A DNA stretch of 64,000 nucleotides, from positions 23,318,905 to 23,382,904 of the forward strand of contig CM119267.1 of the NCBI GenBank assembly GCA_051294375.1, read 5' to 3'. The notes beneath the pieces are model-generated. The model searched no databases. It was not told the DNA's origin and worked only from the letters and a program-made list of their open reading frames with translations. This stretch comes from Paraspadella gotoi (lineage: Eukaryota > Animalia > Chaetognatha). Shown piece by piece: positions 1 through 21,064 of the stretch. Numbering within the stretch: position 1 is the first letter of the stretch; each line of letters starts with the position of its first letter. The translations under genes and the position numbers were made by a program.

Positions 1-3000
1 TCGAGATCTGTCGCCATTACTGCTGAAGGAATGCCCCAATTTCTCGAAGACTTCTCCGCCGATGCTGTCTCTCCTCCTTTGAAGGATCAAGAAGAGATCC
101 TTGGCCTCTTGGAAATGACCATGTCCAAAATGGGCGACCGCATTTTCGCCCATTTGCCCTATATCCTCCGCGTGATTCTGCGACTCGGCGCCGGCGCAAA
201 GAAGCTATTGGATGAAGGGCGCGGAAAAGTCTCCTCCATTCATCCCAGCCATCTCTCCCGACTCAGGAACGTCAAGAACGCGTCCTTCAAACGGGTCGCT
301 CAGTTCTTCAAACTCTTCGACTTTTATCCCTTCACCTCCGCGGAAATCGACGCCATTTTCGAAATTTTTATTTGGCCTTATCTCGGGAAGCAAACGATCA
401 CCAAGGAAAGCTTGGCTTCGCCGACTCCCTGCTTAAAACTCCTGCACTCCTGGACGCTTTCCTCGAGATATTTCCCGTTGTTGACCAAGTGCCGAGACGG
501 AACCGCGCCCGTCGATGTCATTTTCGAGATGATGAATTCCCCGGATTTGAAGAAACCCGTCCTTCAATTGATCGTCGACTGCATTGATCGACTTCTCAAT
601 TCCTCGGATCATTCGACTGCTCCCAATCTTGAATCCACGGCGCCGGCTCCGTGCCACATCCTGGCCGAAGGATGTCGCATTTCGCCCAGCGAAGTCAACA
701 AGGATCAAACGATAGGATTACGAGTCCTGCTGCCTTTTGTCTCTGAAATTTTCAAGTATCTCCACGGAGTTATGCGGCGAATTTCTCGAAAGAAGGACGC
801 CTCGATGCCGGCGAGAGAGTTGACAATGCTGTCGACGATGAGTCCTTTCATTCGTGGCGACGCCGAAGCCGACACCATCATACGCGTTCTCCTGCCTTAC
901 CTCAGTCGATGGAAAGTGCGCGCAGCCGCACCGGTAATCACCGCAAAACAATCATGGACTCCCAAAGTGGATGCGTCCGACGATGATCTCGAAACCAGCC
1001 TTTTGCGGGTTTTGCATCACGCGTTTGCGCTCTCCAGTCGTCCCCGCAACTACGTCATTCCCATTCTTAAGCTTTTCGGTTCCGCTCCTTCATCCGATCG
1101 CAACAACAGATCAAGACATCTTTTGATTCAAATTCTCGGAGACGTTGCAGGCATTGATGCTCACATTGCGCCTCTGCATGCGCTCGCGATCGAAGTCAAT
1201 GCCATGAATCCCAAAGTTTTGGATGAACCCGATTATGGGCGGCGGTTGGTGGCATATGAAGGCTTTGGAAAGCGTCTGCTAAGTCTTTCTACGTCCGACG
1301 AGAACTTAGACAAAACGGCAGAAAAATTGCGCGACTTTGAAATACTCCTTATGCTGTATAACAGTTTGCATTTTCTGCGCCTTGCAGATGACATTGCGCT
1401 GAGGTCCAGCTCTTTGAACTGCCTCAAGAAAATTGTGAAATATGTTGGTTCTCAGGGAAATGAGACGATGTTTAAGAGAATTATCGTCAATCACTTGATG
1501 TTGGAGATTCGCAGGTCTTTGTCTGACCCTAAAGAGAGGATTCGCCACGAGTTCATTGGCCTTTTGGGTCAGGTCGTGCGATGCTGCGGAAAGTCGAGCT
1601 CCGAAGATGGGGAAACGTCTAAATCATTTGCCGTAGAGTTGAAGCGTCTCATAGATGATACCGATCCAGAAGTGGACTTTTTCGAAAATCTCATTCACAT
1701 CCAGATACATCGTCGTCCAAGAGCGTTGACGAGACTTACCAAGCAGTTAGAGGCGAAAGAGCTGGGCTACGAGTCCGTTCACTCTTACATCTTTCCCATT
1801 CTGACGGCAATCTTAAACGAGGATTCCTATTTGAAACATCAGAACATTCTCGTCGAGGAGTGCGTCAAAGCCCTGGTGGCCGCCTGCAAGTTTGCACCTT
1901 GGTCGCTTTATTACACCACGTTGATGACTTTTCTCAAGCGACTGACGATCCCAGGCACAAAGTCACGGATCGCTGTCAAAGTTGTGGTTCCGCTTTTGGA
2001 GGCCTTTCACTTTGACCTTTCGCTGTCTCGCGGGTTGAAAAGAGGAAAGGACGGGATGGAAAAAGGAAATAAAGGGAAGACGAAGGAGAAAGCCGTTGAA
2101 AAGGGAGTAGAAATAAATCTGGAAGAGAATGAGGAAATAAAAAGTGATGAAGATGAACCGATGGAAACTACAGAGGATAATGATGCTGAAGAAGATGAAG
2201 AGAACGAAAAGAAATCGTTTCAAACCTCTTGGGTAGATCCCTCCCGACCATTGTCGGAAGAAGACGCTACAGAAATTCACCAAACGATCGCAAAAATCGT
2301 CATTCCTCAATTGAATCGACAACTTATCCAAAAGAAAAAAGGAGAGGAGGTGCACAAGCTCAGCAAAGGCGACGTTTATGACGAGAATGAAGCATTGAGA
2401 GTTCCTCTTGCCATGGCCATGGTCAAGTTGCTCTCGAAACTGCCGGACGGAATGTTGCAGTCTCACGTGACCAATATCATCACCAAAGTGATTCAGTTTT
2501 TAAAGTCTTTTGATCAGGAAGTGAGGCAGGCTTCTCGCGAAACCCTAAAACACATCTTGGTTACTTTGGGACCCAAATACTTTTTCTACATCATCACCGA
2601 ACTCAAGGAGACTCTCCTTAAGGGATTCATGAAACACGTTCTCAATTTTACCGTCCACAAACTTCTCAAAACCTTGGCCGGGACGAACAGCCTTCGAAAA
2701 CTTTTGGAACCCAGCAACTTCGACGCCTGCGTCCCCGTCTTGTCGGAGATTTACTGCGACGAACTCTTCGGCGACGTCGGCGAGGAGAGGGAAGTGGAGG
2801 CCATCACCAATAAGATTCATGAAGCCAAAGGCGCCTGCAAAAGCTACGACTCTTATCTAATCCTCGGTAAAAACGTTTCGCCTTCCATGCTGACGACCCT
2901 GTTGATGCCGTTGAGAAACAAGCTCAACTCGTCGCAGAGCAAAGAAATCGTGGGCAAAATCTCCACTTGTTTGTCCATGATCACCAACGGGTTAGCGCAA

Positions 3001-6000
3001 AACAAATCGATCCCCGTCGAACTGCTGCTCACGATCGCCCACGGATTCAGCAAGGACGGATTCGAAGGGATCGTCACGTCCAAGAAGAAAGAGGTCGATG
3101 TCCCCGTTCCGTCGTTGCGACCGGAGAGCTGCCTTCTCTTACCCGAGAATCCGGGACGAGCGGGATTCAAGCCTCAGACGACCTCTGCTACCAACAAAAA
3201 CGTTCTCATCGATTTCGGTCTTCAACTCTTGCAAATGTGTCTCAAGCGGGGAAAGGTGAAAGCAAACAATGTGGAACACTTGGGAATGTTGGATCCTTTC
3301 GTATCCATTTTGTCCGAATGCCTTGATGCCAAGCATACCAAGACGGCCGCCACTGCCTTGCAGACATTATGCCTCATTTTGAAGTTTCCTAACCTGCCGT
3401 CGCTTATGACCCACTTTAAGGACATTGCAGACGCTGTCTTTGTGATCGTTCACCGCTATGGCACCGGGGGTTTAACGAAAAAGGGCGAGATCGCTGAGCT
3501 CGTTGCCGCAGCATACAAGGCTTTGAATATCGTTTTGCACAAGTCGTCGAAGCCACTCGGCGAGGACGAGATGGAGTATCGCCTGACGGAGGATCAATTG
3601 AAGGCGCTTGTGATGTATGTGGAGCACGATGTGGCCGGCGCCGATTCGGTCGCCGCCGACAGACAGCCGACGGCCTTTTCCATGCTGAAGGCACTGCTCG
3701 CGCGAAAGTTCAATTGCAAAGAGCTCATTCCGCTGATGGACAAGGTCTTCATTCTGGCCATCAAGTCGCCCTTGGAAGGAGTGAGGTCATCCTGCCGGCA
3801 ACTCTCCCTGCAATACTTAGTCCACTACCCGTTGGGCAAACGGATCAAGGGTCACTTGCAGTTCTTTTTGCGGCAGTTGGAATACGACGGATTCGAGGAT
3901 GGGAGAGCTTCGGCTTTGGAGATGGTGCAGGTAAAGATGACTCATACATATCGTTGACGTTTAGTCAATTAACGAGGGTAAATAAAAAGTGACAAGTTTA
4001 TTAATGAAGGAAAATGATTAAGGTGATGGCAAAGGTAAAGATGACAAAGGTTACGACAAAGGTGATGACAATATTAAACGGTTCAATAATTATTTGAAGA
4101 AGGGTTCTTTTTTGAGTTTGGATGTTAAGGTGATTGGTCATTCTAAGGTTGAAGTAAGGTCTGTGATTCGTCGGCATTCTGATTATTCGTGAAGAAGACG
4201 AGCAATCGCCTCACTAGGCCAACCAAGTCCGTTTATAGGTCCATTCCGTTTATGATATAGATATCAGGGTTTAATGTATTGTTCGCCTTAAGTATAAGAG
4301 GAGGATTTACACATCAGTTAACAATCGTCAACTTCTTTTCCCTATAGGCTCTTCTCCAAAATTTTCCGAAAAAATCTTTGGATACCTACGCCACCAACGT
4401 GATGTTCCTTCCCCTGGCGGCGCGACTCATCAATGAGGAGAGTCAAAAGGTACGCAAGATGGTCGGCATCGTTGTCAAGGGTCTATTGCAGAAAGTGGAC
4501 GTTGCTGATCGAGACACAATGTTCGATTCGGCGATGGTGTGGCTCCGTCAGGACTCTGGCGACGCTCCCACGCTCTTGGCTCAGCGCAGACTGGGTGCAC
4601 AGCTGATCGGCATCTTCGCCGAGGCCGAGGGCTCGGCCTTCGAACGAAGGCTGGACGATGTTCTTCCGGCATTGTCGCTGGCGACGCGACCGGATAAGTT
4701 TGAAGACGAGGAAAAGGAGGACGGAGACGACGGCGATGAGAACGATAACAATTTGGACGATAATGAAGAAGGCTGGGAAACTGTAGGCGCGCCTTCGCGT
4801 GAAGAAGGGAAGAAAACATCCTCGGCCAAGGACGGTCTTCTCTTCATGCTGCTCAACTCTTTTAAAAAGATCATCGTCGCCTGCGGTTCCAACGTTTGGC
4901 GGAGGAAAAAAGTGGATGATCTTTTGCAATTACTGGAATCGGCCGTAGAATTTCTCTACCATCCGCACTCGTGGATCAGGTAATTCGAGACTTGTGGGGA
5001 TGTGTCTTAAAAAAAAAAAAAAATGCTATTAAAAGTTTATCGTTAAAGAAAATAATTAATTAAATTACATAATTGATGATTAGGCTCGTCTCCTCGCAAA
5101 TTTTTGGCCTCTACTTTGCCTCCTTCAAGATTGAGACTTTAAAAGTGGACGCAACCGACGCCACCCCTTCCGGCGTCGCATCTTTTCTCACCCGCGATCC
5201 CGTTGGACAGGTTCGCCAACTCTGCGGCGCCTTTTGCCATCAAATGCAGAGCGAATTTCTCACAAAAGACTTAGCCACGCAAATCGTCAAGAACCTTTTG
5301 TTTATGGTCAAAGTTATTCGGTTCTTGCGGCGAGAAAGAGAGGATTTGATTTTGGGAAGCGGAGAGGACGATGAGAAAAAGATGGAGGAGGAGGAAGAGG
5401 AAGAAGAATCGGACGAGGGGCCGGGACCCGTTCTTTCACGGATGGTGATCGACTCGGAAACTGGCGAGGAGGCTTCCACGGCTCCTCCTCGACACAAACT
5501 CTCCCTAGACTTTGTCCTTCGCCGTGTCGTCTTCGAAGCTCTAAAGGAATCGACTCACCAAAGTCGAGGCACCCTCCGCCAGACCGCTGCGCTGCAGTTT
5601 TCCGCGGCGCTGGTGTCGGAGCTCGACGCCGACGAGACGCGGCACCACTTGCCGACCATGCTGCGTGTGCTTCGGCGCGCGACGAGTTCCGGTCGGCCTA
5701 GCGCGGACGACGCCGCTCCCGGTGCCGCCGATCGTGAGTCCCTCCGTCGTCTGGCCAAAGAGTTTTCCGACATCGTAGAGAAGCGCGCCGGTCAGGAAGC
5801 CTTCGCCTTTGCCATGGTGCGCGTGGAGAAAATGGCCGGAGAGAGGAAGGCGCAACGGCGTCAACAAGCGGCGCTGCTGAAAGTCGTCGATCCCGTGCGC
5901 GCGGCGACGAAGAAGATCAATAGGAAAAGAAAAGGGGGAGACGGAGCGAAGGGAAAGAAGAAAGGGAAGAAGACGAGGCTTAAGGATTTGGCCGTGATTG

Positions 6001-6005
6001 AGTGA
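1..6005 (+). CDS. UTP20: Small subunit processome component 20 (C-terminal part; gene starts upstream of the window)
   Basis: Frame is open from base 1. Inferred exons <1-3930, 4348-4979, 5084-6005 joined in frame by GT-AG introns. HEAT-like helical protein with recalled UTP20/DRIM motifs (EVDFFENLIHIQIHRR, KGFMKHVLNFTVH, ELFGDVGEEREV, YPLGK, HPHSWIR) and a basic KKK tail. Confidence 0.93.
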
Positions 6006-6278
6006 AGACTTGAAAACGTGACTTATACTCTAAGTGCTCTTTAAACTCTTTGTTGGCCCTGAAGCGAGGGAGAAACTGTTTTTTTTTTTAAGTTGAAGTG
6101 AGAGAATTCCCGCGCGTTGTGTCGTTTGCGCGGGATTTTCGTGTTTTTATTACGTAGTTAAATTATCAAATTCTTTTGTTTTTTTTAGTTCCTCCCCAGT
6201 TTATTTTCACTACAAAGGATAAACTTTAATCCGTGTCGGCCGCGGGTGGGAATTGTCTTTCCCTCCGCCGAATGCCCC

Positions 6279-7240
6279 ATGGCTCTTTTCTCCTCCGCGT
6301 CTCTTTTAAAACTCGCTCCATCCAAATTCGTTCCTTTCTTTTCCTCTCCTCGGCGACACGTTCACGTCCCCAAGCATATGTGGGGTCGACCCAACCCTAA
6401 GTATAAAAAGGTGAGATGGTTTTGTAATAGAGATAACTGTAAAATCCCAAATGACAAAGTTTTTAAATTTTATTTTCATATTGTGGTTCGTATAAATCGA
6501 GCAACGCGTTAATTTCCTGCGCAGGGAGAAAAACACGGTCGTTATTGGCGTTCCCGTCAAGGATTGCCCAACGTCCTCGACGAGACGGGCCCGCTGGCCG
6601 AACTGCCCGATTGGACCTTCGCCGACGGAAGACCGGGGCCTCTGTCCAGGAAGCAGACCGCAAAGTGAATAGTTGGTTGAGCCTGTGAAAGGAAAACGAT
6701 TTTAGACAAAATCGTGAAGAGACAGTAATTATTGTTGTTAGTGACAGAACCGTTCAATATAAGCAGTCCCTGAGCTTCGGATCAGGCTGTAACACCGTGT
6801 TACAGGCGGGTTAAGCGCCCCGTCCCTCTTAACTGCTAGGCGACCTCCGGGCTAGAACCCTGGACCTTTGGGTTGGGAGGCGAATGACTTGACTCCGGCA
6901 CCAATGGCCGTAATCGGTTATTTTATTGTTGGACATAAACTCTCGTCGTAATCCGTCGATCTTATTTGCCTTACCCCGCTCATCATTATTTTCCAAAACA
7001 ACTCGTTTTTACAAAAACAGGGAGATTGCCGATTCTTTATCTTTGTTGCGAAAAATGATCCAATTTGTTGTCTTCAGAGTCTTGGAACAGCAACGCCTCC
7101 TCCGCGACGTCGTGGCCGGACTCGAGTTCATCAAATTCGCTCAGTCGCGCCCTGACCGTCACGCCGAGGAAGAGGAGTCGTCGCGTCGTGCCATTTTAGA
7201 CTCAAAGCTGCGTCCCAAGGGAAACCTCGTCCTGGAATAA
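6279..7240 (+). CDS. MRPL52: Mitochondrial ribosomal protein L52 (mL52)
   Basis: Exons 6279-6410, 6525-6664, 7078-7240. Exon 2 is missing from the ORF track and reads WRSRQGLP..GPLAELPDWTFADGRPGP, the mL52 signature. C-terminal LRPKG and a presequence-like N-terminus. Confidence 0.9.
6726..6912 (-). mobile_element. Putative tRNA-derived SINE, copy 1 (in MRPL52 intron 2)
   Basis: Minus strand has a tRNA-like head (ctcccaac loop, B-box-like ggttctagccc), then ggacggggcgcttaa...ttacagc..gatcc..gggac, and an A-rich tail. A diverged copy lies at ~52410-52550. Confidence 0.55.
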
Positions 7241-7270
7241 ACTATTACTTCGTCCAACAATATTGCAACT

Positions 7271-7756
7271 ATGTCCGAATCCGAACGGGTCGATGCCCGC
7301 CTTAACAAGATCGCAAATTACGAGGCTTTTCTCAACGAGAGGCTCAAGCGCGACCTCCTTCGCGTCCACCAACGACGCGACGAGGTCTGGGAGGAGCAAG
7401 CCGAATACCTCAAGCTCAAGACGGTCGTCGAACGCGTCAAGTCTTCCCCGAGCGTCGCCCGCGACGGACTCAAGTCCCGCGTCGATCTCGGCTGCAACTT
7501 TTATGCGGAGGCTCGCGTGGACGACCCTTCGAGGATCTTCGTCGACGTCGGGCTCGGGTATCACGTGGAACTGACCCTCGACGAGGCGACTAAGGTCATC
7601 GACGAGAGAGTGGAAGCGCTCAACTCCCGCGCCGAAGCTTTAACCAAGAGCGCCAATCAGATCAAAGCGCAGATTAGGATCGTCGTGGAGGGAATCCGAG
7701 AGTTGTCCAACATTTCTCGAGAAGATGCGGAAAAGTACAGGGACGTTTGGGCCTGA
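7271..7756 (+). CDS. UXT: UXT, prefoldin alpha-like protein
   Basis: Intronless 161 aa ORF with YEAFLNERLKRDL, VDLGCNFYAEARV, IFVDVGLGYHVELTLDEA and VVEGIREL, typical of UXT. Confidence 0.92.
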   Translation: MSESERVDARLNKIANYEAFLNERLKRDLLRVHQRRDEVWEEQAEYLKLKTVVERVKSSPSVARDGLKSRVDLGCNFYAEARVDDPSRIFVDVGLGYHVELTLDEATKVIDERVEALNSRAEALTKSANQIKAQIRIVVEGIRELSNISREDAEKYRDVWA

Positions 7757-8037
7757 GATAAAGAAAGAGATCTCTCTGCTCGTGTGAAAGTGTTTTACAT
7801 GTTTTCATGTCTTTAAATATATTGATGCCATTTTTGTTTATTATAAGTTGATATTCGTATATAAAAGAACAAAGGAGTTGTAAAGAATAGCAATTAATCA
7901 AAGGTAAAGTTAAAAAGGATCCCAACTCATCATCGCCTTCTTTAAAACTCCGGTTTGTCGTTTTTCGATTTGGTTTGTTTTTGTTTCTCTTCCGCGCAAA
8001 AAGAATACCAAAGACAAAAAACCCTCGGAAGACCGAA

Positions 8038-10884
8038 ATGACGCAATCGTCTCCCGCCCCGCGCGTTCTCGTCGCCTCCAGCCTCGCGGAAAAACTCTCT
8101 ATCACTTCCTTAGACAACTTTGAGCGGGGCCTCGACGGTCCGCGACCGGTCCACGCTTTGATCGGCGTTCCCGGCGACGCTGAGTCCGGCGCCCCCATCC
8201 TCGTGCTAAACGCTTGTCGACTTCATGATCCCGACATGGGCTTCTGCGAAGTAGAACCTTGTAAGGATTCATTTAAAATAATTATAATATTTTTTCCTTC
8301 CACCAAGTAAAATAATTTTCCTCCACTTTCCTCTTTTTGTTCTAATAGGCGTCAATCTCATTCTCGCCGACATCGATTCTCATCTTTCCGGCGGAGTCTC
8401 GGTTGTCGGTCTCCTTCACTACAACGGGTCTATAGGAGGGTATGTTTGTCTAAGATAAGCATATAACTAGGTACCAAGAGGTTCAGTGTAAACAGAAGAA
8501 TTCTCGCTTACTATGTAAACTGTCCTTAATATAAGTATATATGAAAATAGACACATTTAGATTTAATACTGCAATATGTAAATGAGATTGAGAGATTCAA
8601 TTTCATTTAAGATCATATTAAATAATCATCTCTTACAGCTCTGCAACAATGAACAAAAATTGAAAATAATATGTATAATATGTACAATAAGTATTCCCCG
8701 ATCTAATACTTAAGGGAGTGGTCTTTTCATACAATTGAAACATTCTTTGAAATATTTTCCACTTCATTGATAGGGAAGCCAGGTACTCTGGGAGTTAATA
8801 AACGAGACTGTGAAAGAGTCTTGATTGAAAGCTTGCAGGGACCTGCTATGTCATTATCTTGTAAGAGTGATGGAGGCCTTAAACCACCAAAGCCTGTCCA
8901 AAGTCAGGGGCAAGATAGCTTATTTATTAAATGATTGGATAATTTTTATATTGGTTGTACCAATTTCATGTAATATCTAAATAATTTATCCTTTGCTCAC
9001 CCAGCAACATTCCCGAAGACGTCCTCCACATCTTCGACCCCTACGATTCGAAGATGCCGCGAGACCGCGACTATGTACAGCTGTCGCTGGCGCCGTCTCA
9101 GTCTGACGCCGTCGGTTACGAAATCGCAGAATGTCACGTCTTTCGAATCGGAGACGAGGATCAGGAGAAAACGACTTTTTCCGTCGTCGACGATCCGTTG
9201 GACGATTTGCTTCTCTTTCGCGTCCGCGCTTCTTTCCCGCTCAACTTGGAGATTCCCGAAGATGACGAGCAAATAATCGGCGGGGCGATCGAGCGACTTT
9301 TGACGCGACTCTCCATGAGATCCCCCGCCTTTGCCCTCGAGAGCAGCGCCGCCGATTTAATCCTCGCCCGCGGCGTCGTCTTCAACGCCGAGGGAGAAGA
9401 TCTCCGCGACGCCGGTGACGTGCGCGACTTCGCCGAAGCGGCGATGGCGCAAAGCGACGTCGACGAAGGATTCGCCATCGTCGCCTCCGCCGAAGATGAA
9501 AGAAAGAAGAGGAAGAAGCGAGCTAAGAAATCCGCGACGATTAAAGGCCCCAAATCTGCCATCTGCTTCAGATTCTTCGAACGCATCACCGGCGACGAGG
9601 CCCTCGAGCCTTTCCCATCCCACAGCCCCGTAATTCGCCTTACGCCCAAAGAATTCGTCTCTGTCAAGACTATCCTTTCGTTGGAAGCGCTGGCCGTCGC
9701 GCGTTCGGGAGATTCCCGCGAGGCGCTCCTCGATCGCTTCCTCCAAGGCCTCGAGCGGCAGATCGTGAGCTGCGGAGAGTGGCTCAAGTCGAGACTCTAC
9801 GCCGTTGTGAAAGCGTCGGCGCCTCGTCGCTTTGAATCATTTCACGCTCTGCCTGAAACTGCCGGACATTTCGTCTCCATTGTCGTCCCCATTGGCGCAG
9901 AGGACAATGACGATGACATGGAAGAAGAAGATAAGAACATCCGGCGCCGATTAGCTTATTATTTTTTCTTGCCGCCGGATCGACCGCTCTTTCGAGAAGG
10001 AAACGCGTACGTCTTCGCCGAAGAAGCCGCGAGCTCGCCTTATTTGAGAAACGTTCACTTGGGCCTGAAGCGGCCGTTACCCAATGCGGCGGAGGCGGCC
10101 GTGGCGACGGTTCAGGGGAACTACGTTTATCATCATTACTTGCAGGTAGAGAGGAAAGAGGTTTCACTTTTTCTCTATTGGTGGCGTTGTTGTATTTATC
10201 AATTCGTAACATCACAATGACTGTTATCAGGTACTTTTTGTCGCCCGACTTATTTTTTTGTAATATTACTTCAGGATCGCATGTCCGACGATGGATGGGG
10301 TTGCGCCTATCGATCTCTTCAGACGATCGTTTCGTGGTTCCGTCTTCAAGGTTACACCTCCCGTGCCACGCCCACCCACACGGAAATTCAACAGACGCTC
10401 GTCGATCTCGACGACAAGCCTCCGTCGTTCGTCGGTTCGAAGAAGTGGATCGGTTCAATGGAGGTTTGTCGCTAATTCATATTTTTGTAATTGTTTACAT
10501 TTAGTAAATCTAAATTGGATTTGAAATTATCTCCAGGTAAGCTACTGTCTTGACCATCTCGCCGGCGTCACCTCCCGCATCCTTAGCGTGAGCTCCGGTG
10601 CCGCTTTGGCGGACAAGGCGCGCGAGCTGCTCGACCACTTTCGATCGGAAGGCACGCCGGTGATGATCGGTGGCGGCGTCCTGGCGCACACGATCCTCGG
10701 CGTCGCCTTCGACGACGTCGGCGGCGAAGTCAAGTTTCTCGTTCTCGATCCACACTACACCGGCGCCGAAGACCTCAAGATCATCCAGGACAAAGGCTGG
10801 TGCGGTTGGAAGCCATCCTCGTTTTGGGACAAGAACGCCTTCTACAATCTGTGTTTGCCGCAACGACCGAGGGGAATCTATTGA
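8038..10884 (+). CDS. UFSP2: UFM1-specific protease 2 (peptidase C78)
   Basis: Exons 8038-8260, 8349-8439, 9005-10145, 10275-10463, 10537-10884 stay in frame. Motifs [11 protein letters not shown], catalytic [38 protein letters not shown] and YNLCLPQRP. Confidence 0.95.
8835..8975 (+). repeat. ~140 bp dispersed repeat, copy 1 (UFSP2 intron 2)
   Basis: gcagggacctgctatgtcattatctt...ggttgtaccaatttcat is a near reverse complement of ~31932-32068. Confidence 0.8.
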
Positions 10885-11097
10885 AGAGTGAAGACGAATC
10901 TTACGTGTTGATGTTGATGCTGAAGATTCCGTATGTTGCAGATGATGTTAGGAAAAAGACATTGTTTCATTGATCTTAAGTCCTAGCGTTTCAAATTAAT
11001 AAAAACTAGTCACCGTTTAATGGAAAATAAAGCCTGTTAATGCTTAATCATTGTTGTCATAATTTTTTTAAAAAATGATAAAACGACAGATAGAAAA

Positions 11098-11879: not shown

Positions 11880-12690
11880 TGATGAATGACTCATCGCGTC
11901 AATGATTAGCATCATATTAATAAATGACTATCATCGCATCAATGAATGATTATCAGCGCATCAATGAATGATTATCATCGCATCAATATTTGGTTATCAT
12001 CACATCAATATTTGTTTATCATCGCATCAATATTTGGTTATCATCGCATCAATAATTGTTATCATCGCCTCAATTATTATTACACCAATCAATTACTATT
12101 ATATCAATCAATTATTATTACATTAATTATAATTACATCAATCAATTACTTATATCAATCAACCAATCATTTATTAATATATCAATCAATTAATTACTAT
12201 TACATAAATCAATCGAGAACAAAAGACGGAAAACCCTGCTCATCATTACTATTACATCAGTCAATCAATCAATTACTATTATATCAATCAAACAATTTCT
12301 ATTACATCAATCAATTATTATTNNNNNNNNNNNNNNNNNNTCAATCAATTATTATTACATCAATCAATTACTATTATATCGATCAATTACTATTATATCA
12401 ATTACTATTATATCAATAATTCGTAATCAATCTTTTTTTTCGTGGATTTTTTCATTAATNNNNNNNNNNATCGCATCAATAATTGTTATCATCGCCTCAA
12501 TTATTATTACACCAATCAATTACTATTATATCAATCAATTATTATTACATTAATTATAATTACATCAATCAATTACTTATATCAATCAACCAATCATTTA
12601 TTAATATATCAATCAATTAATTACTATTACATAAATCAATCGAGAACAAAAGACGGAAAACCCTGCTCATCATTACTATTNNNNNNNNNN
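11880..12690. repeat. Low-complexity ATCA/ATTA repeats with a gap-flanked duplication
   Basis: 12043-12253 is repeated at 12470-12680 between N runs, and a CT microsatellite lies just upstream. Confidence 0.75.
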
Positions 12691-12704
12691 TAAGATTTTT
12701 TAAA

Positions 12705-13211
12705 ATGTTTTTAGCACAATGTAGAACGAGAGTTTGGACGAACCTCTTCGACCCGATGTGGATAGGTTTTATCGAGGGACTTTCTTATCGACTCTGTCCT
12801 CTCGCCTTCTCGCTCAGTAGCAAGCCAAAAGCCTCTACAGTCCTGACGTGCCACTTACGCCAGCGGGGCTACCCTCACTGGACTTCGTATTCAGTCAAGT
12901 ATCGGGACGTCCTCAACGATCAATGGGGTCACTCGCATTTTAACTGGCTCGTCGACGGCGTTAACTACCACGTGTTGCGGACCGGGTGTTGGCCCTACAT
13001 CAAGTATCACGTTTCCAAGAGAGCGCATCAAGACTTGAGCCTCGAGGATATTCTATTCCGCTGTTTGAAGCTTTTGAATTTGGGAATCCCGACTGTAGCC
13101 TACGGACTCGGGTGTTGGATGGTGATCTCGTGCGAGGAGAGAATTCAGACGGAGCAAGGTCCAGTCACGATCTACTTCGCGATTCCAGAGGACAAAGGCG
13201 CCGTTAGTTAG
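12705..13211 (+). CDS. C15orf61: C15orf61 homologue (DUF4528)
   Basis: KPKASTVLTCHLRQR, PHWTS, NDQWGHSHFNW, NYHVLRTGCWPYIKYH, NLGIPT and EDKGA match recalled C15orf61 sequence. The start lies next to an N gap, so the true ATG is uncertain. Confidence 0.88.
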   Translation: MFLAQCRTRVWTNLFDPMWIGFIEGLSYRLCPLAFSLSSKPKASTVLTCHLRQRGYPHWTSYSVKYRDVLNDQWGHSHFNWLVDGVNYHVLRTGCWPYIKYHVSKRAHQDLSLEDILFRCLKLLNLGIPTVAYGLGCWMVISCEERIQTEQGPVTIYFAIPEDKGAVS

Positions 13212-13256
13212 CGAAGGAGAACGGATATTTAGGGTAATTGCTAAGAATCTCTCGCG

Positions 13257-14246
13257 ATGGTTTTTTGGACGGCGGTCGGCGTCGTTTCTCTCACCGGCGC
13301 CATTATTCATCTCGCCCGTCGCTATTTTACCGGCGCTATTTGCAAAGATCGCTCCTCGTTGGCGGGAAAGACCGTGATCGTCACCGGCGCCAACTGCGGT
13401 ATCGGAAAAGCCGTGACGCGTATCTTAGCGGAGCGCGACGCGCGCGTCATCTTGGCTTGCCGAAACACTACGACGGGCGCGGAGGCGGCGTCGGAGGTAG
13501 CGAAGGCCACCGGACACGACGCCACTCAGTTGGTCGTCAAGCACTTGGATCTGGCCTCCCTCGAGTCAGTCACCGCCTTTTGCGCGGACATCGTCGCCAC
13601 GGAACCGCGAATCGATGTGATCGTCTGCAACGCCGGTTTGGCGTCTCTTCCGCAGCTGGTGCGCACCGTCGATGGGTTCGAGACGCAAATGGGCGTCAAT
13701 CACTTGGGTCACGTCGCGCTCACTCAACGTCTACTCCCAGTTTTAAAGGCGTCGGCGCCGTCGAGAATCGTCGCCGTCTCTTCGGTTCTCTACAAGAATG
13801 GCAACGTCGACCCCAACTATCTCAACTATGAACAGAAGAAATACGACCCCAACACCGCCTACGCCGATTCCAAACTTGCCACAATTCTCTACAACGCCGA
13901 ACTCGGTCGTCGACTCGCCGACTCCCGCGTCAACGTCTTCAGCGCCTCGCCGGGAATCGTGTACACAAACTTGGGACGCTTTCGATCCTTCACAGTTCTT
14001 GAGAAAATCCTCGCCGTCCCCTTCGCTATCCTCTTCGTACGGACTCCTCATCAGGGCGCCCAGAACGTCATCCACTGCGCCACGGAGCCTTCGCTGGAGG
14101 ATCCCGCTGCGTCGGGAAAGTTTTATCGGGATTGCAGGGAAAAGGAGTTAGTGAAAGGTCATCAGGCCGAAGATCCCGAGTTGGCTCTGCGGGTGTACGA
14201 GGCGTCGTTGAAATTAGTCGGGATGGAACCGGACAAGAAAACTTAG
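13257..14246 (+). CDS. Retinol dehydrogenase 11-14-like short-chain dehydrogenase/reductase
   Basis: N-terminal hydrophobic anchor, TGANCGIG Rossmann motif, NAG, NHLGH and catalytic YADSK. Intronless. Confidence 0.93.
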   Translation: MVFWTAVGVVSLTGAIIHLARRYFTGAICKDRSSLAGKTVIVTGANCGIGKAVTRILAERDARVILACRNTTTGAEAASEVAKATGHDATQLVVKHLDLASLESVTAFCADIVATEPRIDVIVCNAGLASLPQLVRTVDGFETQMGVNHLGHVALTQRLLPVLKASAPSRIVAVSSVLYKNGNVDPNYLNYEQKKYDPNTAYADSKLATILYNAELGRRLADSRVNVFSASPGIVYTNLGRFRSFTVLEKILAVPFAILFVRTPHQGAQNVIHCATEPSLEDPAASGKFYRDCREKELVKGHQAEDPELALRVYEASLKLVGMEPDKKT

Positions 14247-14671
14247 TGAAAATCGGGGAGCCCGGATATCGAAGGAGATTGGCCCCGCTGATTGGTCGGC
14301 GTAGTAGCGCCGACTTTCTTACAGTTTTTTCTTTTGTTTTTCTTTTGTTTTCCTTTCGTTTTTTCTCTGATAAACGTGTGATCTACCGGACTAACCGTTT
14401 CAAAATACGATTCTTGGCGAGACGGACCGATGAATCTGTATTCAATTTTGGAATATTTTTTTTCCACTCTCGTTAAATCAATTTACGTTATTGAAATATA
14501 CATATTATACATACAATGCCTATTGAGACGATCTTCAATTACTCTGAGATTTAAATTCGATTTTTTCCCCCCCAAGCTTAACCCGTGTAGTTCGGGATGT
14601 TCCCAACGGAAAAAATTATCAGTGGCTTCGAAATTTCTTAAACTCTTCAATCCCTCATATAAGAAAATAAT

Positions 14672-17411
14672 ATGGAGACGGACGCGCCCCTCAAGTCGGA
14701 CTCTCGTCCTCTCTCCTCGGCCTCCTCCGCCGAGTCCCTCAATTCTCTCAAACCCAAGTCGCCCTCCTCCATCGTCGCCTCTTGCCCGACTTGCGGCAAG
14801 AGCTTCTGCAGCGTCGGCGCCCTCAAGCGTCACAATATCAGCATCCACCTCAAGAACGAGATTTTTCCCTGCAACGTCGCCGGATGCGGAAAGACTTTCT
14901 TGCTGAAGGAATATCTCAAGAAGCACCTCCGTCGCTTTCACAAACTTCCTCCCATGTTTCCGCGGAAACGGAAGAGCACCTCCGATCTGAAGGCGTTGAA
15001 GACGTCGGCGAAGGGCATGGCCGGAGGCGTCTCGGCGCCGGAAAAGGGACTCGACATCTCCGGTGAATCTCCCGATCAAACTTCCTCTGGCCAAAGCTCC
15101 GCTCCGCCGCAGTTGAAAACCTTCGCCGAATCTCTATCCCGCTCGGAGAGATCCGCGCCCGATTCAGCCTCTCCGTTCCCTGCGCGACCTTCGAAACCTC
15201 TCGCCAGGAAAAAGTCTTCCTCGTCGACGAAGACTGTCCGCATCTCGGCCGACGAAAGCGTCGGGGGTGAGAGCGACGGGCCCCTTTCCGACGCCGCCTC
15301 GTCATCTTCCAGTCCGGAAAAACCCGGCGCCGGTCTCGGTATCGCCGGAAAGGGCAAACGCCGCAAGCAGAAGAAGGCGCTGGTCGAAGGATGGGTGGAT
15401 CCGGATGAACTCGGCGACGATTACTGGTTGCCCGGCGCCGCAAAGAAAGTCAAGATTGCCGAAAAGAAAAAAGGTGGGGAAACTGTAACGCCGGAGGCGG
15501 TGGCCGCCGCCGCTGCCGCGGCGACTGCGGCGCTCAACGCCATGACGGCTGCGTCGGTAGCATCGGCAGCACCGGCAGCACCAGCACTGAAAAAGAAGAC
15601 AATCGAGGAAAAACCAGTTGTTGACGGCGTAAAAGTTGAGACGAACCTCATTACGCCGGCGCGAAAATCCTCGGGCAAGTCCCCCATTACGGTTGCCGGA
15701 AAGTCAATACCGATGTCGGTCGGCAAGCCCGCTCTGACGCCATCGGGCAAGTCCGTCGCTCCGCCGTCGGCTAAGTCCGCTCCGACGCCCGCCGGAAAGT
15801 CCTCCCCGACGCCCGGCAAAAAATCTAGTGACGCCTCCCTTCAGAAATTAAAAAAGATTCGTTCCAAAACTCTGGCCGATCGAAAGGAGCTTTCGAGGGA
15901 AAGCCGATTCAGTCCCGCGATCGACCGGAAGAGCGCCACCGATTCCCCGACGCCGTCTTCCTCCGGCGCCGGACAATCGAGCAAATCCGTCAAGGGGCCG
16001 GTGATTCGAGTTAGAGGCGATTCCGTCGATATCGTGAACAACCCGGAGGCGGCGTCGCAGGTTAGTGTGATGGATTGATTGATTTATTGATTCGAGTGCG
16101 TTATTGATTCTGTTGATTTATTGATTCTGTTGATTTATTGATTCTATTGATTTATTGATCCTCGTCGAATTTTCCTCGACGATCCTTATGCTTTTAAAAA
16201 TTTGTTGTCTTTTCAATTTAATTACCTTAATTAATTTTTGTTATTGTTATTAGAAAAAATCGGTGATCATTATCTTATTAACACGCAACCTCGGTCAAAC
16301 CACATGACCTTACCAACCTTACCTCGCTCAATTCCCCCAACTTATTTATGGTCAAAACGGTTGACCTTTATGGTCAAACGTTGACCTTTGTAAATACCAT
16401 TGTAATAGACTTAGTATCTGAGCATTTTGACTGTTATTGTTTATAACCTTGTTGAAGAATAAATCATTCTTGATCTGAAACTTGTATCGTCCATAATCTC
16501 TCCCATTCCCTCAAGGTGATCAACGGTTGTAAGCCGGCTAAGTGCCGCTACTACGCCGGCCCTTACGTCAACGAAAAGATCGCCAAGGGCTTCTACAATC
16601 GCCCGCCGACGCATTTCGTCCTCAATTACGAGGACACCCACAACTGGCGCTGCATGCTCTGCGGCCACGGCAACTTCTTCGACGATCTCGGCCAACTCTT
16701 CGGTCCGTTCCACGTGGCCGAGTCCAAACTCGACGCCATCTTCGCCGAGTCTCTCGTCAGCCTCTGCCGAGAGTCGATGGCTTCGATGTCGGAGGCGGCG
16801 GTGCTGTCGCCGAGGCGGAGCAGGATCGTGGCCGGAACCAAGGGGCCGGTGCAGGTCAGGATGTAGTATCCGCTTTTTTTTTCTTTTCTATTTTCCTTTT
16901 TCTTTTCTTTTCTCTTCTCTTCTTTTGTCACTTCTTATCTTTATCCATTTTCTTCTCTTTTCTGTTTTCTTTTCTTTTCTTCATTAATCTCCTTTTCCTC
17001 CAGGGATCCAAATCCCCCACCCGATCCGCCATCACCTCCTCCGGCAACATCGCTCAAGAGACGGACGACTCTGTGGCCGTGACTAACCCCGACCCTGAGC
17101 CTTTCGAGATTTGGCTTCACGAATCTTGCGTAGTTTGGTCGGTAGGCGTCTACATGGTGGAAGGCAAGCTCTATGGGCTGGAGGAGGCGCTAAATCTGGC
17201 GGCCGAGACCAAGTGCTCCTTTTGCCTGGAGTTGGGCGCCTCGCTCGGCTGCTTCAAGAGCTGCAACAGCAACTATCACTTTCACTGCGCCAGGAAAAAC
17301 TGCTGTCAATTTAACGAGGAAACTTTTACCATTCGATGTCCGAAGCACGCCGAGTCGAGGTCGACGGTCCTGACGGCGTCAAAGGAGAACGTCGCCGTCG
17401 TGGCTCATTAA
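14672..17411 (+). CDS. TCF20/RAI1-like extended-PHD protein with two N-terminal C2H2 zinc fingers
   Basis: Exons 14672-16060, 16516-16854, 17004-17411. C2H2 fingers CPTCGKSF..H and CNVAGCGKTF..H. ePHD motifs WRCMLC..LGQLFGP and WLHESCVVWSVGVYMVEGKLYGLEEAL..CSFC..GASLGC..YHFHCA..CPKH. Confidence 0.8.
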
Positions 17412-17847
17412 GAAAGAAAGGAAAGAAAAAAAGAAAGATAGTCAGTTTGCTAAATTATTTTCTAATTTTACTAAGTATGCTGATTGAAAATCTATTGAGT
17501 TATTCACAATTAGCGGAATTTTTTTTTTTCAATTGACAATTCATTTATCCCATTGAATCTAGCTTCGCCAAATTATTTTGCGCTTCCAATTTTGTTTAAT
17601 TTTTGTTAGTCCAAATTTTTCGTCGCGTTTATTGACGTTGCGACAAAATTACCCTAATTAGTCATCGTCATTATATTTATGTGCCATTTATTTTCCTGAC
17701 CGTTTTTATTTATTAATTAGTAATTACTCGCCCTCCCCTCGTTTTAGGACGTGCTAAGTTCGCTTCTATCTCAATTACTTGTTCTCGACTTTTGCACTGT
17801 TGTCATTTATTTATTTACTCGCAAAAGACTAAAACTCAAAATAAACA

Positions 17848-20800
17848 ATGAATCATTCCGAGGACATAAAATCTGACTTGGAGCGCCTCGTGCTCCGCGT
17901 CTTTCCCCATTTGGCCAAGAGCGATCAGAACTTTTCCATCTGCATGGACTTTGCTCAGTCTCACGTGCGGCGTCACACTTTTCTCGCCCCCGACGCGCAC
18001 AAGATCCGTCGCGCCCTAGACGGGATCGTGGAGAAAATCGCCGTTCACTCGCAGACCAACAAGGTACGGTAGCAACTACGTAATCATTGCACCAACTACT
18101 TCCTATTTATAATGATTGACCGATCCTTCATCAAATCAACATCCCCCCCCTACATCAGGCCGATTCCCTCAAACGCCTCGTGGATTCCTTCCCCCGCTCG
18201 CCCCTCTTCGAAGAGACGCCAAAGATCAAATCCTTGACGGGCGGAGGGGAGACTCACTTCGCCGTTCTCTCCTTCCTCCTCGAACTCTCTCAACAGCCGA
18301 CGGTCTCCTATCGCCACCTCCGCCTCGCCCTTCCTTTCGCCGCGTCGAAAAAGGCCGGCGAGGAGGACGCCGACGCCTTCGATTGGCCGGCGTTTTTGAG
18401 GGAAGGCGAGGAGGACTTTAATCGATCCGACGCCACCTCAGGGTTTTTGGATTCTTCGTCGGGCGGAAGCGATTTCGAGGAAGAGGTACGTATTTCAGTC
18501 TATCAATGTTTGTGGATACCTTTTGTCTCGAAATTTATTTATAACAACTCAAGTTTAATAAAGAAAAACATCGATTTGGGAAACAGTGCTAATTTTATTT
18601 AGACCATGCATTAGACACATTTTTTTCCGCTGAAAATGGTCATAGAGTCTCCAAAAATGTGTCATTCTGTTCGTATTTAAACGTTCTTTAAGAAAAAAAA
18701 CCTTTCAAAGATTTTTAAATACTTCTCGCCTCTCCCAGGGCGTCAAAGTGCCACGAGCGTCAAATTTATCGATTTTTGATATTTTCTTTATTTTCTTGTT
18801 TATAATAGCTAATTTTAAATAATTTTTCAATAATATGTTATGATTTATTAGGTTATTCCAATAAAAAAATCTTATAGATTTGTATTTGCATTGTATCAGT
18901 ATCTTTAACCGGAAAAAATGCCACAGACCGGAAATGACTCACCAAAAATCACGTTATTTTCATAAAAATTTACAATTTAGGAATTTTTCCGAAAAAAAAA
19001 TATATGAAAGCTAGAAAAATATTTTAAATTTTATAAGTCATTGCAAAAGATGAGAAAAAGATAGATACCCGGGACGAAAATGCAGAATTAGTTCATATTT
19101 ACTTCAATTTGTAAATTCGGAGCGCGTGACTGGAATCAAGTATGATTCTGACCGGACTCACGCTTGAAAATAGGAAGAACAGGCTTGTCAAGGAAAGATT
19201 TGATGAGAAAAACAGTGAGACTGGATTTAATTTTAAAAACATCTTAAATTTAACGTATTGTAAAATATTTTTTTAAAAAGTTTTTTATAATAAATATCAA
19301 TCTTTTATGATTACGGGAAGAAAACCTTGCAATACCATCATATGTCATAAAGATCCAGAGATTTAATCACTACAATCTAACGATGCTTGATATTATGCCG
19401 AACACTAAACATGGAAAAATGCCAGAAACTATTACAGTTACATTAAAAGCAGCAAGAGTGAATATGGTCAGCCATCAGCACTGCTGATCGGGCATGTCTA
19501 TCAACCGACAACCTTTTTCTCCTTTTACGAGATATTGTTTCGTCACAGTAAAGTTGTCATGAAAATGGTTTTTTCTTTGCTTTCACTTATTTCCTGAGAT
19601 CCGTAAAGAAGTTCATATGACCAAGTTAAATCTTAAAAGGTAAAATTTAAAAAAAAAGTTTTATTGATCGTAATTAATCTCATCTCCAGGAAACCTTTAA
19701 CTTCTGAAAATTTTTATTGAAATGACCTGTAGGACATAACTCCCTATGTAGTTCGTCGCTTTAAATTTACTTTTGTAAAAGTGTTTAAAAAATATAAACA
19801 ATCAATATTTGTTTAAGCGCGTTCTTGCATTTATATCCTGAATATGCTTAATTTCTCGTGCTGTTTAGTCTGAGCCCCCAGCAAAAAGTTTATGTCACCA
19901 TTATGTCATTTTACATGTACATCATGGCGGATGCGCTCCCCCTCTAAAAAATAAACGCAATGCAATGAAAGACGCAATGGTGGCGGTCTTAAAATGCCTG
20001 TTTTCCATTTCAAACAATATTGCCAATGCCTTGTATGTACGATGATAGTCATCTGGAAGAATTTATAACGAATAGTCTTGCTTGTTTTTTCAGTTCCAAT
20101 ATTTGTTTTAACAATTTGGTAAAATGATATTATAAAATGAAACATAAAAATTCTTCCATGCTTACACGATTTGAGCCGTCAAGTGAATGGAAAGACAATT
20201 CAAATTTCCAAGCTTTCGTCACCTTTTTAAACAGATTTCCTCTGCTCAAGCCACTGAGCGTAAGGTCAAGTTTGCAAGTGCCATGACCTTTTGCAATTCC
20301 CAATAATCTTGAGCAAACTTCATTCAGGATTTTTGCAGGCAATTGATATGAATCAACGGCGACATCCCAAGTAATAGTTTTAAACGTTGAAAAACGGTTA
20401 CGGCCATTTTGGTCACATGATCTCATCTATATCCCTCATATACTGATTTTTTTTGCCATAAAACTTTTGGTTACGAAATACATTATTTTTTACTTTTTAA
20501 AACTTGGTCTTTGCCATTTTTCTTGTAGCAATTAAAATTATTTGAATCTGTGATCTAAATTTTTCATTTTTAGGAAAAATTTCAAAGTAATTAATTAACT
20601 TCCGGTTTATTATATTATTAAAAATTCTTAATAACGGTTTGAGGTGTTTAAATTACGATTAAATATTTTGGGTAACATTTAATATAACAGGTAATACAAA
20701 TTTTATCCTTATTTTTATAATTATCTAAAAAATTGTTTTGAAAGACCTCAAAAATGGCTGAAAATCAATTATTTTGACGCCCGTGGCACTTTAACGCCCT

Positions 20801-21033
20801 CGGGAAAGCGAGATATTAAAAAATGCATTATAAATGCTTTCATTGTGTATAGCTCTAAAATACGAAAAGAATGACACCTTTTTCATAACTCTATGACAAT
20901 TTTCAGCGGAAAAAAATGTGTCTACCATGCATTCAAACCATTTAGCTGGTTCATTATTCAAGGCCAGAGAAATTGTGGTGAGGTAAAAAATTATTTACAA
21001 ATAAGAGAAGGTGAGAGGAAGAGGAGGAGACTC

Positions 21034-21064
<31 letters not shown>

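What the first reader, a model, noticed from the sequence alone, without database searches (positions are those of the whole stretch)
7200..7300. MRPL52-UXT junction: 30 bp spacer, in frame, with no AG and AATAAA overlapping the stop
Seen: the spacer 7241-7270 (actattacttcgtccaacaatattgcaact) has no AG, so it cannot hold a standard trans-splice acceptor. It is 10 stop-free codons in frame with both genes, and AATAAA (7236-7241) overlaps the MRPL52 TAA. No ATG lies between 7078 and 7271. Inference: UXT is made either from a true bicistronic mRNA (reinitiation or leaky scanning), or by SL addition inside MRPL52 exon 3 (acceptor 7077 or ttttag ending 7199), which would make the two mRNAs mutually exclusive. 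Stop readthrough into a fusion protein is less likely with TAA-A.
Basis: partly seen in the sequence, partly recalled or inferred. Interest (0 to 1): 0.8.

Follow-up and report, generated by a model that had tools for sequence, protein, structure and literature searches.

The report
Arrow-worm two-protein mRNA, MRPL52–UXT
In an animal that is likely an arrow worm, the genes for a mitochondrial ribosome protein (MRPL52) and a chaperone subunit (UXT) lie 30 bases apart with no splice signal between them and assemble into one spliced RNA here and in a relative, and weak start signals on the first gene suggest that ribosomes likely slip past it to make the second protein from the same uncut message, instead of the message being cut in two as is usual in these animals.

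Summary
One spliced RNA contig of this organism runs through MRPL52, the spacer, UXT and UFSP2 with one mismatch, so the spacer is not a mis-assembly. A relative's cDNA contig (L001) carries both genes 38 nt apart, out of frame, and starts with 17 nt of the chaetognath spliced leader SL2. The organism is therefore likely an arrow worm, the pair is conserved, and read-through is out. The same library also bridges operon junctions that have good acceptors, so bridging shows co-transcription, not a mature bicistron. The mechanism evidence is in start contexts. In both species every AUG upstream of UXT, including MRPL52's own, has a pyrimidine at −3 (3 of 3; 5 of 5), and UXT's AUG has A. Nine of 10 other window genes have a purine there. 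Three related MRPL52 lineages have no internal Met, against 11 of 96 homologs elsewhere. Best reading (0.58): an SL-capped bicistronic mRNA read by leaky scanning, probably helped by a uORF. Main rival (0.27): SL addition at an acceptor inside MRPL52 exon 3 or near its stop. The AATAAA overlap, the frame and the lack of AG are each common by chance. No raw reads were available.

The parts
6170..6188 (+). Poly-T tract and AG: likely SL trans-splice acceptor of MRPL52
   Evidence: The X1 contig begins at 6189, directly after this AG, with no loose letters; the relative's MRPL52 cDNA L001 begins with an SL2 tail; all SLs in Table 3 of PMC2481426 end in TAAA, which would make the assembly branch at exactly this base (inference).
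6272..6400 (+). Out-of-frame 42-codon uORF overlapping the MRPL52 start and spanning the one in-frame Met (6378)
   Evidence: -3 base C. Translation not shown.
6279..6410 (+). MRPL52 exon 1 coding part; start codon with C at -3 (weak context)
   Evidence: start aligns with the starts of P0155, P0157, P0158; intron joint seen in X1.
6525..6664 (+). MRPL52 exon 2
   Evidence: PF18699 E 1e-11; both flanking joints in X1.
6665..7077 (+). MRPL52 intron 2 (413 nt); its acceptor 7077 is a candidate alternative SL site
   Evidence: GT..AG joint 6664>7078 in X1; P0160 and P0162 stop at the same residue, consistent with an intron at this place in a relative (inference).
6715..6910 (-). High-copy repeat in intron 2 with A-box- and B-box-like motifs (tRNA-derived SINE-like)
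   Evidence: Depth 43,000-69,000 from hundreds of X1 contigs; box-like motifs by pattern (box patterns recalled); no tRNA by ARAGORN, no Rfam hit.
7078..7240 (+). MRPL52 exon 3 to TAA; free of ATG
7194..7199 (+). TTTTAG inside exon 3, candidate internal acceptor
   Evidence: Pyrimidine fraction 0.65, inside the 0.53-0.88 range of 16 real acceptors; chance 0.035 by codon shuffle; not present at this position in L001.
7236..7241 (+). AATAAA overlapping the stop; use as a poly(A) signal not shown
   Evidence: T fraction 0.22 downstream against 0.33-0.43 after the UFSP2 and PRMT hexamers.
7241..7270 (+). 30-nt intercistronic spacer, no AG, no ATG
   Evidence: crossed without mismatch by the X1 contig.
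7271..7756 (+). UXT, single exon, 161 aa, start with A at -3, no other Met
7757..8037 (+). 281-nt gap with three ATGs; pyrimidine-rich AAG sites at 7847 and 8003 are candidate acceptors for UFSP2
   Evidence: crossed by the same X1 contig.
8038..11037 (+). UFSP2 (exons 8038-8260, 8349-8439, 9005-10145, 10275-10463, 10537-10884) and 3' UTR; third gene on the 3467-nt contig

Best explanation
MRPL52 and UXT are co-transcribed in an operon of a likely chaetognath, and their junction is likely left uncut, giving an SL-capped bicistronic mRNA from which UXT would be translated by ribosomes that scan past the weak MRPL52 start. Shown: one spliced RNA contig crosses the spacer; the spacer has no AG; all upstream AUGs have a pyrimidine at -3 and the UXT AUG has A; the pair and this pattern are kept in a second species whose cDNA starts with an SL tail. 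Inferred: the leader is added once, at 6188/6189. Most 40S subunits start at MRPL52. Some pass it, or start at the overlapping uORF (6272-6400), skip the single in-frame Met and resume scanning over an AUG-free stretch to UXT. UFSP2 lies behind a strong UXT start and six further AUGs, so it is probably cut off by SL addition at an AAG acceptor. An MRPL52-only mRNA ending after the AATAAA may exist as well.
For: (1): one 3467-nt X1 contig skips both MRPL52 introns and runs unbroken 7078-8260 with 1 other letter. (2): L001 (1 of 49 UXT loci fetched) is intronless, holds full MRPL52 (67% identity) and UXT (60%) 38 nt apart, starts with the last 17 nt of SL2.0 (PMC2481426 Table 3) and ends 36 nt after the UXT stop. 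(4): -3 is C or T at 3 of 3 upstream AUGs here and 5 of 5 in L001, A at both UXT starts. 10 of 10 other window starts have A or G by first-ATG choice, and 9 of 10 after correcting the C15orf61-like start by homology; that exception is the other gene followed by a very short spacer. Six of six non-start upstream AUGs with a pyrimidine: P 0.01-0.06. (5): internal Met 0, 0, 0 in three related MRPL52 lineages and 1 here, against 0 in 11 of 96 and at most 1 in 24 of 96 other homologs; the Met-free part includes exons 1-2, which the internal-acceptor model does not predict. (6) Contrast: in other animals UXT follows KRR1 (4 loci) or another ORF (1 locus); 4 of these 5 show a poly-pyrimidine YAG just before the UXT start, and the upstream ORF has 8-10 internal Met. 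(7) The same signature was tested in green algae and cited for Drosophila (PMC11892635, passages).
Against:: the same X1 library gives one 8202-nt contig across four genes, including a junction with a strong acceptor (17747), so bridging does not show a mature bicistron. SL branches would be dropped from contigs. AUG depletion alone is weak: at most 1 AUG in MRPL52 plus spacer has P 0.125, the 363-nt AUG-free run P 0.059. L001 has 3 out-of-frame AUGs in MRPL52 against 4.45 expected and one 4-codon uORF. N-terminal Met absence alone is common (31 of 52 homologs), and the four lineages are related, so they are not independent. Exon 3 holds a TTTTAG in both species, at different places (P 0.035 and 0.12). 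L001's spacer has AAG sites, one with pyrimidine fraction 0.59, and AAG ends 3 of 16 introns here. Only two DNA sequences of the junction were seen. X1 is only guessed to be RNA and is one study.
Confidence: 0.58

Rival explanations
1. UXT has its own monocistronic mRNA, made by SL addition at an acceptor inside the MRPL52 gene (intron 2 acceptor 7077, or TTTTAG 7199; an AAG in the spacer in the relative), possibly from a promoter in intron 2. The two mRNAs overlap, exclude each other per precursor, and merge in assembly.
For: Chaetognaths trans-splice about half of their genes and resolve operons by SL (PMC12460157 passages; PMC2481426). Exon 3 plus spacer is ATG-free in both species. 7077 and 7199 score within the range of real acceptors. 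TTTTAG occurs once in 11,781 nt of nine other coding regions. Shared cis/trans acceptors and true internal SL sites are documented in flatworms (PMC12582326 passages). Contigs cannot show SL branches.
Against: Gives no reason for a weak MRPL52 start in both species, for weak contexts at all exon 1-2 AUGs, or for Met-free exons 1-2. The 7199 site is absent at that position in L001. The flatworm paper judges most internal sites low-level noise. No second contig or joint is laid on 7103-8236 in X1, though contigs drop such variants.
Confidence: 0.27
2. The mRNA is bicistronic, but UXT is reached mainly by reinitiation after the full MRPL52 ORF (30 nt away) or by internal ribosome entry, not by scanning past the first start.
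For: Short spacer in both species (30 and 38 nt) with no AUG. FlyBase authors note most Drosophila dicistrons do not meet scanning requirements (PMC4528330 passages).
Against: Does not need a weak MRPL52 start. Exon 3 plus spacer folds no better than shuffles here (z +1.20) or clearly in L001 (z -1.03). Stop and start do not overlap. Reinitiation after long ORFs is generally poor (own knowledge).
Confidence: 0.11
3. Stop-codon read-through makes an MRPL52-linker-UXT fusion.
For: The spacer is in frame and stop-free here.
Against: The relative's spacer is 38 nt, out of frame. In-frame and stop-free together is expected about 1 time in 5. TAA-A is a poor read-through context (own knowledge). UXT has its own strong start.
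Confidence: 0.02
4. The junction is an assembly error or UXT is a pseudogene.
For: None found.
Against: The X1 contig matches 7078-8260 at all but one base; UXT is full length and 60-67% identical to relatives; the linkage is in a second species.
Confidence: 0.01

Closest known systems
Chaetognath SL-resolved operons (RPS14-PCNA in Spadella cephaloptera, PMC2481426; 18% of genes in Paraspadella gotoi, PMC12460157)
   Same: Same-strand housekeeping cluster, gaps under 250 bp, SL on the first gene, co-transcription.
   Different: The described junction has an acceptor three bases from the upstream poly(A) site; this spacer has no AG, so it cannot be resolved that way. I found no uncut, translated junction described in the passages read.
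Drosophila dicistronic mRNAs (stoned and Snapin as cited in PMC11892635; 159 pairs in PMC4528330, including mRpL53 with 8 nt between stop and start)
   Same: Short spacer, unrelated small housekeeping proteins, weak first start, few internal AUGs in the first ORF.
   Different: Drosophila lacks SL trans-splicing; here the bicistron would sit inside an SL operon and carry an SL cap. mRpL52 and Uxt did not occur in the 12 supplementary files searched (one file not searched).
Green-algal bicistronic loci read by leaky scanning (PMC7896298, PMC11892635)
   Same: Weak ORF1 context, stronger ORF2 context, weak internal AUGs, frame not conserved.
   Different: Shown there by long reads, proteomics and mutants; here only inferred from sequence and contigs. 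No trans-splicing in those algae.
KSHV ORF35-36 uORF-driven reinitiation (PMC3561293, abstract)
   Same: A uORF close to the first start that could send ribosomes to the downstream ORF.
   Different: Viral; the uORFs there are short. Here it is 42 codons and overlaps the start, and in L001 it is 4 codons and ends 9 nt before the start, so only its position is shared.
SL1-type operons of Caenorhabditis and Ciona; internal SL acceptors of flatworms (PMC9258526, PMC12582326)
   Same: No real intercistronic region; 3' end formation and trans-splicing would compete (the rival model).
   Different: Those have an acceptor abutting the poly(A) site; here it would have to lie inside the upstream coding exon.

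Membership tests
SL-resolved operon junction (chaetognath, Ciona, SL1-type) | Genes co-transcribed, same strand, short gap | tested here: met
   30-nt gap; one spliced contig across it; L001.
SL-resolved operon junction (chaetognath, Ciona, SL1-type) | SL on the first gene | tested here: met
   L001 starts with 17 nt of SL2.0; in the window only inferred from the contig start after AG 6188.
SL-resolved operon junction (chaetognath, Ciona, SL1-type) | AG acceptor between the upstream 3' end and the downstream AUG | tested here: not met
   No AG in 7241-7270; UXT has no later Met to start from. L001 has AAG sites only, with pyrimidine fraction 0.35-0.59.
SL-resolved operon junction (chaetognath, Ciona, SL1-type) | SL found on the downstream gene's own mRNA | not testable with these tools
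   Only assembled contigs were offered; the held supplements of PMC12460157 name none of these genes.
Leaky-scanning dicistronic mRNA (Drosophila, green algae) | Both ORFs on one mature poly(A) mRNA | tested here: inconclusive
   One contig in X1 and in L001, but X1 also bridges junctions with good acceptors.
Leaky-scanning dicistronic mRNA (Drosophila, green algae) | Weak context at ORF1 start, stronger at ORF2 start | tested here: met
   -3 C versus -3 A in both species; 9 of 10 other starts purine. MRPL52 has G at +4 and UXT T, so the contrast rests on -3.
Leaky-scanning dicistronic mRNA (Drosophila, green algae) | Few, weak AUGs upstream of ORF2; few in-frame Met in ORF1 | tested here: inconclusive
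   All weak at -3 (P 0.01-0.06); Met 0, 0, 0, 1 versus 11 of 96 with none; but overall AUG count P 0.125 here and not depleted in L001 exons 1-2.
Leaky-scanning dicistronic mRNA (Drosophila, green algae) | ORF2 protein made from that mRNA and falling when ORF1 context is strengthened | not testable with these tools
   Needs Ribo-seq, proteomics or reporters.
uORF-driven reinitiation (KSHV ORF35-36 type) | uORF at or just before the ORF1 start | tested here: met
   6272-6400 overlaps the start; L001 32-46 ends 9 nt before it. uAUGs are common, so two cases are weak.
uORF-driven reinitiation (KSHV ORF35-36 type) | ORF2 output depends on the uORF | not testable with these tools
   Needs mutation of the uAUG in a reporter.
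Programmed stop-codon read-through fusion | In-frame, stop-free spacer conserved across species | tested here: not met
   38 nt, frame +2, in L001.

The most novel reading that the evidence does not exclude
Arrow-worm operons contain a class of junctions that are never cut by trans-splicing: conserved, SL-capped bicistronic mRNAs in which a deliberately weak first start, helped by a uORF, sets the ratio of two unrelated housekeeping proteins. MRPL52-UXT is one, and C15orf61-like-RDH in the same window (45-nt spacer, pyrimidine-poor AG sites, first start with C at -3, a start-stop uORF ahead of it) is a second. Some of the 681 short-gap clusters in P. gotoi without any SL-annotated gene (2,151 candidates minus 1,470 validated) could be of this kind.
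Probability: 0.3. Interest if true: 0.78.

Novelty: new variant of a known kind. Interest (0 to 1): 0.58.

Why it matters
In animals with spliced leaders, operons are assumed to be cut into one-gene mRNAs, and operon finders count only SL-resolved junctions. A conserved junction with no acceptor and a leaky-scanning signature would show both solutions, cutting and co-translation, side by side in one transcription unit. It gives a simple rule for finding more cases (short gap, no acceptor, pyrimidine at -3 of the first start) that can be run at once on existing chaetognath long-read and SL data. It also warns that such pairs will be annotated as one gene with the second ORF lost. Dicistronic mRNAs as such are known, which caps the novelty.

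Tried and rejected
No whole genome is held for the window, so no genome-wide control was possible. No listed run is on record as RNA; X1 is a guess, supported by its GT..AG joints. X2 laid nothing and X3 only two short pieces. By length arithmetic X3's MRPL52 contig (440 nt) would reach about 90 nt past the stop and its UXT contig (584 nt) would start near codon 19, which fits a short spacer, but this assumes the lengths of P0158 and P0003, so I do not count it. No contig was laid on 6050-6188; that is no evidence on the UTP20-MRPL52 junction. An acceptor weight matrix from 15 introns was overfit (the held-out true site 7077 scored -2.1) and the script stopped at an N; I used plain pyrimidine fraction instead. 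Cis-splicing exon 2 to 7200 gives a frameshifted 125-aa product, not a fusion. Folding found no unusual structure before UXT. No SL gene, tRNA or Rfam family in the window. The ESM Atlas only confirmed UXT. 48 of 49 UXT loci had no MRPL52 hit at E 0.01; many are short. Earlier scan notes returned nothing. In one search UFSP2 exon 2 was entered one base off at both ends (same length); one search has the corrected frame. The three supplementary files held for PMC12460157 contain none of UXT, MRPL52, RM52 or UFSP2 and no operon table; its Supplementary Table 1 and gene-level SL counts, which I could not see, bear directly on the claim. Papers: PMC12460157, PMC12582326, PMC11892635, PMC4528330, PMC2776167, PMC9258526, PMC3273482, PMC11900008, PMC7896298 as passages; PMC2481426 as passages and section 12; PMC3561293 as abstract; Wall et al. 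2005 only as cited in PMC11892635. Searches for a printed description listed none on MRPL52-UXT or on a translated dicistron in chaetognaths; the library lacks most subscription papers.

Full report
Observation. MRPL52 has coding exons 6279-6410, 6525-6664 and 7078-7240; the 30-nt spacer has no AG and no ATG and is in frame and stop-free; AATAAA overlaps the TAA; UXT starts at 7271 and is one exon with no other Met. Pfam and homologs confirm both names. The single features are weak. 35% of 30-nt windows in other gaps lack AG and 58% are stop-free, and AATAAA also overlaps the TAA of the PRMT gene. The arrangement is what matters: this is the shortest of 11 gaps in a same-strand cluster (UTP20, MRPL52, UXT, UFSP2, a GST-C-domain gene, C15orf61-like, a short-chain dehydrogenase here called RDH, a zinc-finger/PHD gene, a gamma-tubulin complex gene, a SNARE gene, PRMT, one more ORF) and the only one without an AG.

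RNA evidence. Run X1, guessed to be RNA, has one 3467-nt contig that starts at 6189, skips both MRPL52 introns, runs unbroken from 7078 to 8260 with one other letter, and splices on into UFSP2. Its length places the end at 11037, just after AATAAA 11026 (arithmetic). The spacer is therefore real and transcribed. As a control I laid X1 on 12695-18150: one 8202-nt contig runs through four genes, across a 45-nt, a 425-nt and a 436-nt gap, the last with a strong acceptor at 17747. This library bridges operon junctions in general. Bridging shows co-transcription, and cannot tell precursors or overlapping mRNAs from a mature bicistron.

Organism and conservation. Of 49 UXT loci fetched, one, L001, also encodes MRPL52. 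It is intronless, has both full ORFs 38 nt apart and out of frame, ends 36 nt after the UXT stop, and begins with the last 17 nt of the chaetognath leader SL2.0 (Table 3 of PMC2481426). The window's UXT groups with the L001 species and four unnamed proteins at 98/98 support, so the window is likely a chaetognath; this rests on the leader and the tree, not on a named record. All listed chaetognath leaders end in TAAA, which fits the X1 contig starting exactly after the poly-T AG at 6188 (inference). Other UXT and MRPL52 members of those clusters (1213, 1387, 1570, 1746, 1177, 946 nt) had no matching longest length, and one UXT cluster (P0002) had no MRPL52 partner among the hits. The frame change removes read-through.

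How UXT is reached. Chaetognaths trans-splice about half of their genes and resolve operons by SL addition (PMC12460157); in the RPS14-PCNA operon the acceptor is three bases from the poly(A) site (PMC2481426). Two routes remain: translate an uncut mRNA, or add SL further upstream, inside MRPL52.

For translation of an uncut mRNA. The MRPL52 start has C at -3 in both species, and every AUG upstream of UXT has C or T there (3 of 3 here, 5 of 5 in L001), while both UXT starts have A. Ten of 10 other window starts have a purine when the first in-frame ATG is taken. Homologs show that the C15orf61-like gene really starts at 12756, which has C, making it 9 of 10; that exception is the other gene followed by a very short spacer. 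Internal AUGs have a pyrimidine at -3 in 43 of 92 cases, so six of six non-start upstream AUGs has P 0.01, or 0.06 with L001's own rate of 10 of 14. MRPL52 of three related lineages has no internal Met and the window's has one, against none in 11 of 96 and at most one in 24 of 96 other homologs (110 rows, 14 dropped as short or not starting with Met). The window's one Met lies under a 42-codon uORF (6272-6400) that overlaps the start; after it the spliced RNA is AUG-free up to UXT. L001 has a 4-codon uORF just before the start, and its three out-of-frame AUGs open ORFs of 1, 33 and 3 codons that all end by position 332. This is the signature tested in green algae and cited for Drosophila stoned and Snapin (PMC11892635), with a uORF placed as in KSHV ORF35-36 (PMC3561293). 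A contrast comes from other animals, where UXT follows KRR1 or another ORF: 4 of 5 such loci show a poly-pyrimidine YAG just before the UXT start, and the upstream ORF has 8-10 internal Met. MRPL52's stop lies in the last exon if the mRNA ends after UXT, which would avoid exon-junction-triggered decay (own knowledge); 4 of 10 genes here lack introns, so this is no evidence.

Against it, and for SL addition inside MRPL52. AUG depletion alone is not significant here (P 0.125 for at most one AUG; P 0.059 for the 363-nt run; P 0.046 for no out-of-frame AUG by codon shuffle), and L001 exons 1-2 are not depleted. Lack of Met in the N-terminal part is common (31 of 52 homologs), and the lineages are related. 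Exon 3 plus spacer is ATG-free in both species, as the rival also needs. Sites 7077 and 7199 fall in the range of 16 real acceptors. TTTTAG is rare in coding sequence here (1 in 11,781 nt; P 0.035 for exon 3), and L001 has one too, though at another place (P 0.12). L001's spacer has AAG sites, and AAG ends 3 of 16 introns in the window. Flatworms share acceptors between cis- and trans-splicing and have true internal SL sites, mostly judged noise (PMC12582326). Contigs drop short SL branches, so none of this could be seen directly. The rival, however, gives no reason for the weak contexts in exons 1-2.

UFSP2. It follows a strong UXT start and six more AUGs and has pyrimidine-rich AAG sites at 7847 and 8003, so it is probably separated by SL addition. 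The unit would then be an operon of three genes with one uncut and one cut junction (inference).

Verdict. A real, conserved, co-transcribed gene pair in a likely chaetognath. Bicistronic mRNA with leaky scanning 0.58; internal SL acceptor 0.27; reinitiation after MRPL52 or internal entry 0.11; read-through 0.02; artefact 0.01. It works like a Drosophila or algal dicistron, but membership is not established because mature molecules and translation were not seen. It fails the acceptor test for an ordinary SL-resolved junction. Dicistronic mRNAs are known (159 pairs in Drosophila); one nested in an SL operon and conserved across arrow worms did not turn up in six literature searches. Interest 0.58.

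Noticed in passing
window 12696-14246: Second candidate bicistron: C15orf61-like (true start likely 12756 by homology, C at -3, preceded by a start-stop uORF at 12719 and a T-rich AG at 12714) lies 45 nt before an intronless short-chain dehydrogenase whose start has G at -3 and +4. The spacer's only YAG has pyrimidine fraction 0.24. One X1 contig covers both. Relatives' C15orf61 contigs are mostly 1.2-2.4 kb, long enough for both genes, but the partner was not checked, and these proteins keep one internal Met.
   Followed up: partly
window 12696-25877: One 8202-nt spliced X1 contig spans C15orf61-like, the dehydrogenase, the zinc-finger/PHD gene and the gamma-tubulin complex gene: a four-gene operon; its end at 25877 is by arithmetic.
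   Followed up: partly
L006:452-1563, L008:3612-4962, L031:3207-4360, L041:788-1944: In other, unnamed animals UXT lies about 67-320 nt downstream of KRR1 on the same strand, with a textbook acceptor before its start in three of the four: a separate, conserved KRR1-UXT operon-like pair. L033 has another ORF in that place.
   Followed up: partly
window 6715-6910: SINE-like repeat antisense in MRPL52 intron 2 with very high depth in X1 (43,000-69,000); could be a heavily transcribed element.
   Followed up: partly
window 6108-6137: Inverted repeat (CCCGCGC ... GCGCGGG) between UTP20 and the MRPL52 acceptor; possible promoter element or hairpin.
   Followed up: no
window 20924-21934: Element in the long intron of the gamma-tubulin complex gene with 169-nt inverted ends (97.6% alike) around a minus-strand ORF with a nuclease-like motif (recalled as GIY-YIG; not scanned); further inverted matches to 18552-18776.
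   Followed up: no
window 8835-8969 and 31934-32068: A 135-nt repeat (96% alike, inverted) shared between a UFSP2 intron and a site 23 kb away.
   Followed up: no
window 12043-12253 and 12470-12680: Identical 211-nt duplicate beside N gaps: probably an assembly artefact just upstream of the C15orf61-like gene.
   Followed up: no
window 16515, 22257, 26404: Three of 16 modelled introns end in AAG rather than YAG; the one at 16515 is backed by an RNA joint.
   Followed up: partly
window 28691-31818: Long ORF after a strong acceptor (28680) with about 28 copies of a 27-nt coding repeat within 29266-30000; not identified.
   Followed up: no
window 10885-11097: The GST-C-domain gene starts 72 nt after the start of the UFSP2 AATAAA (11026), with only purine-rich YAG sites after an upstream out-of-frame ATG at 11075; how its 5' end is made is unclear.
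   Followed up: no
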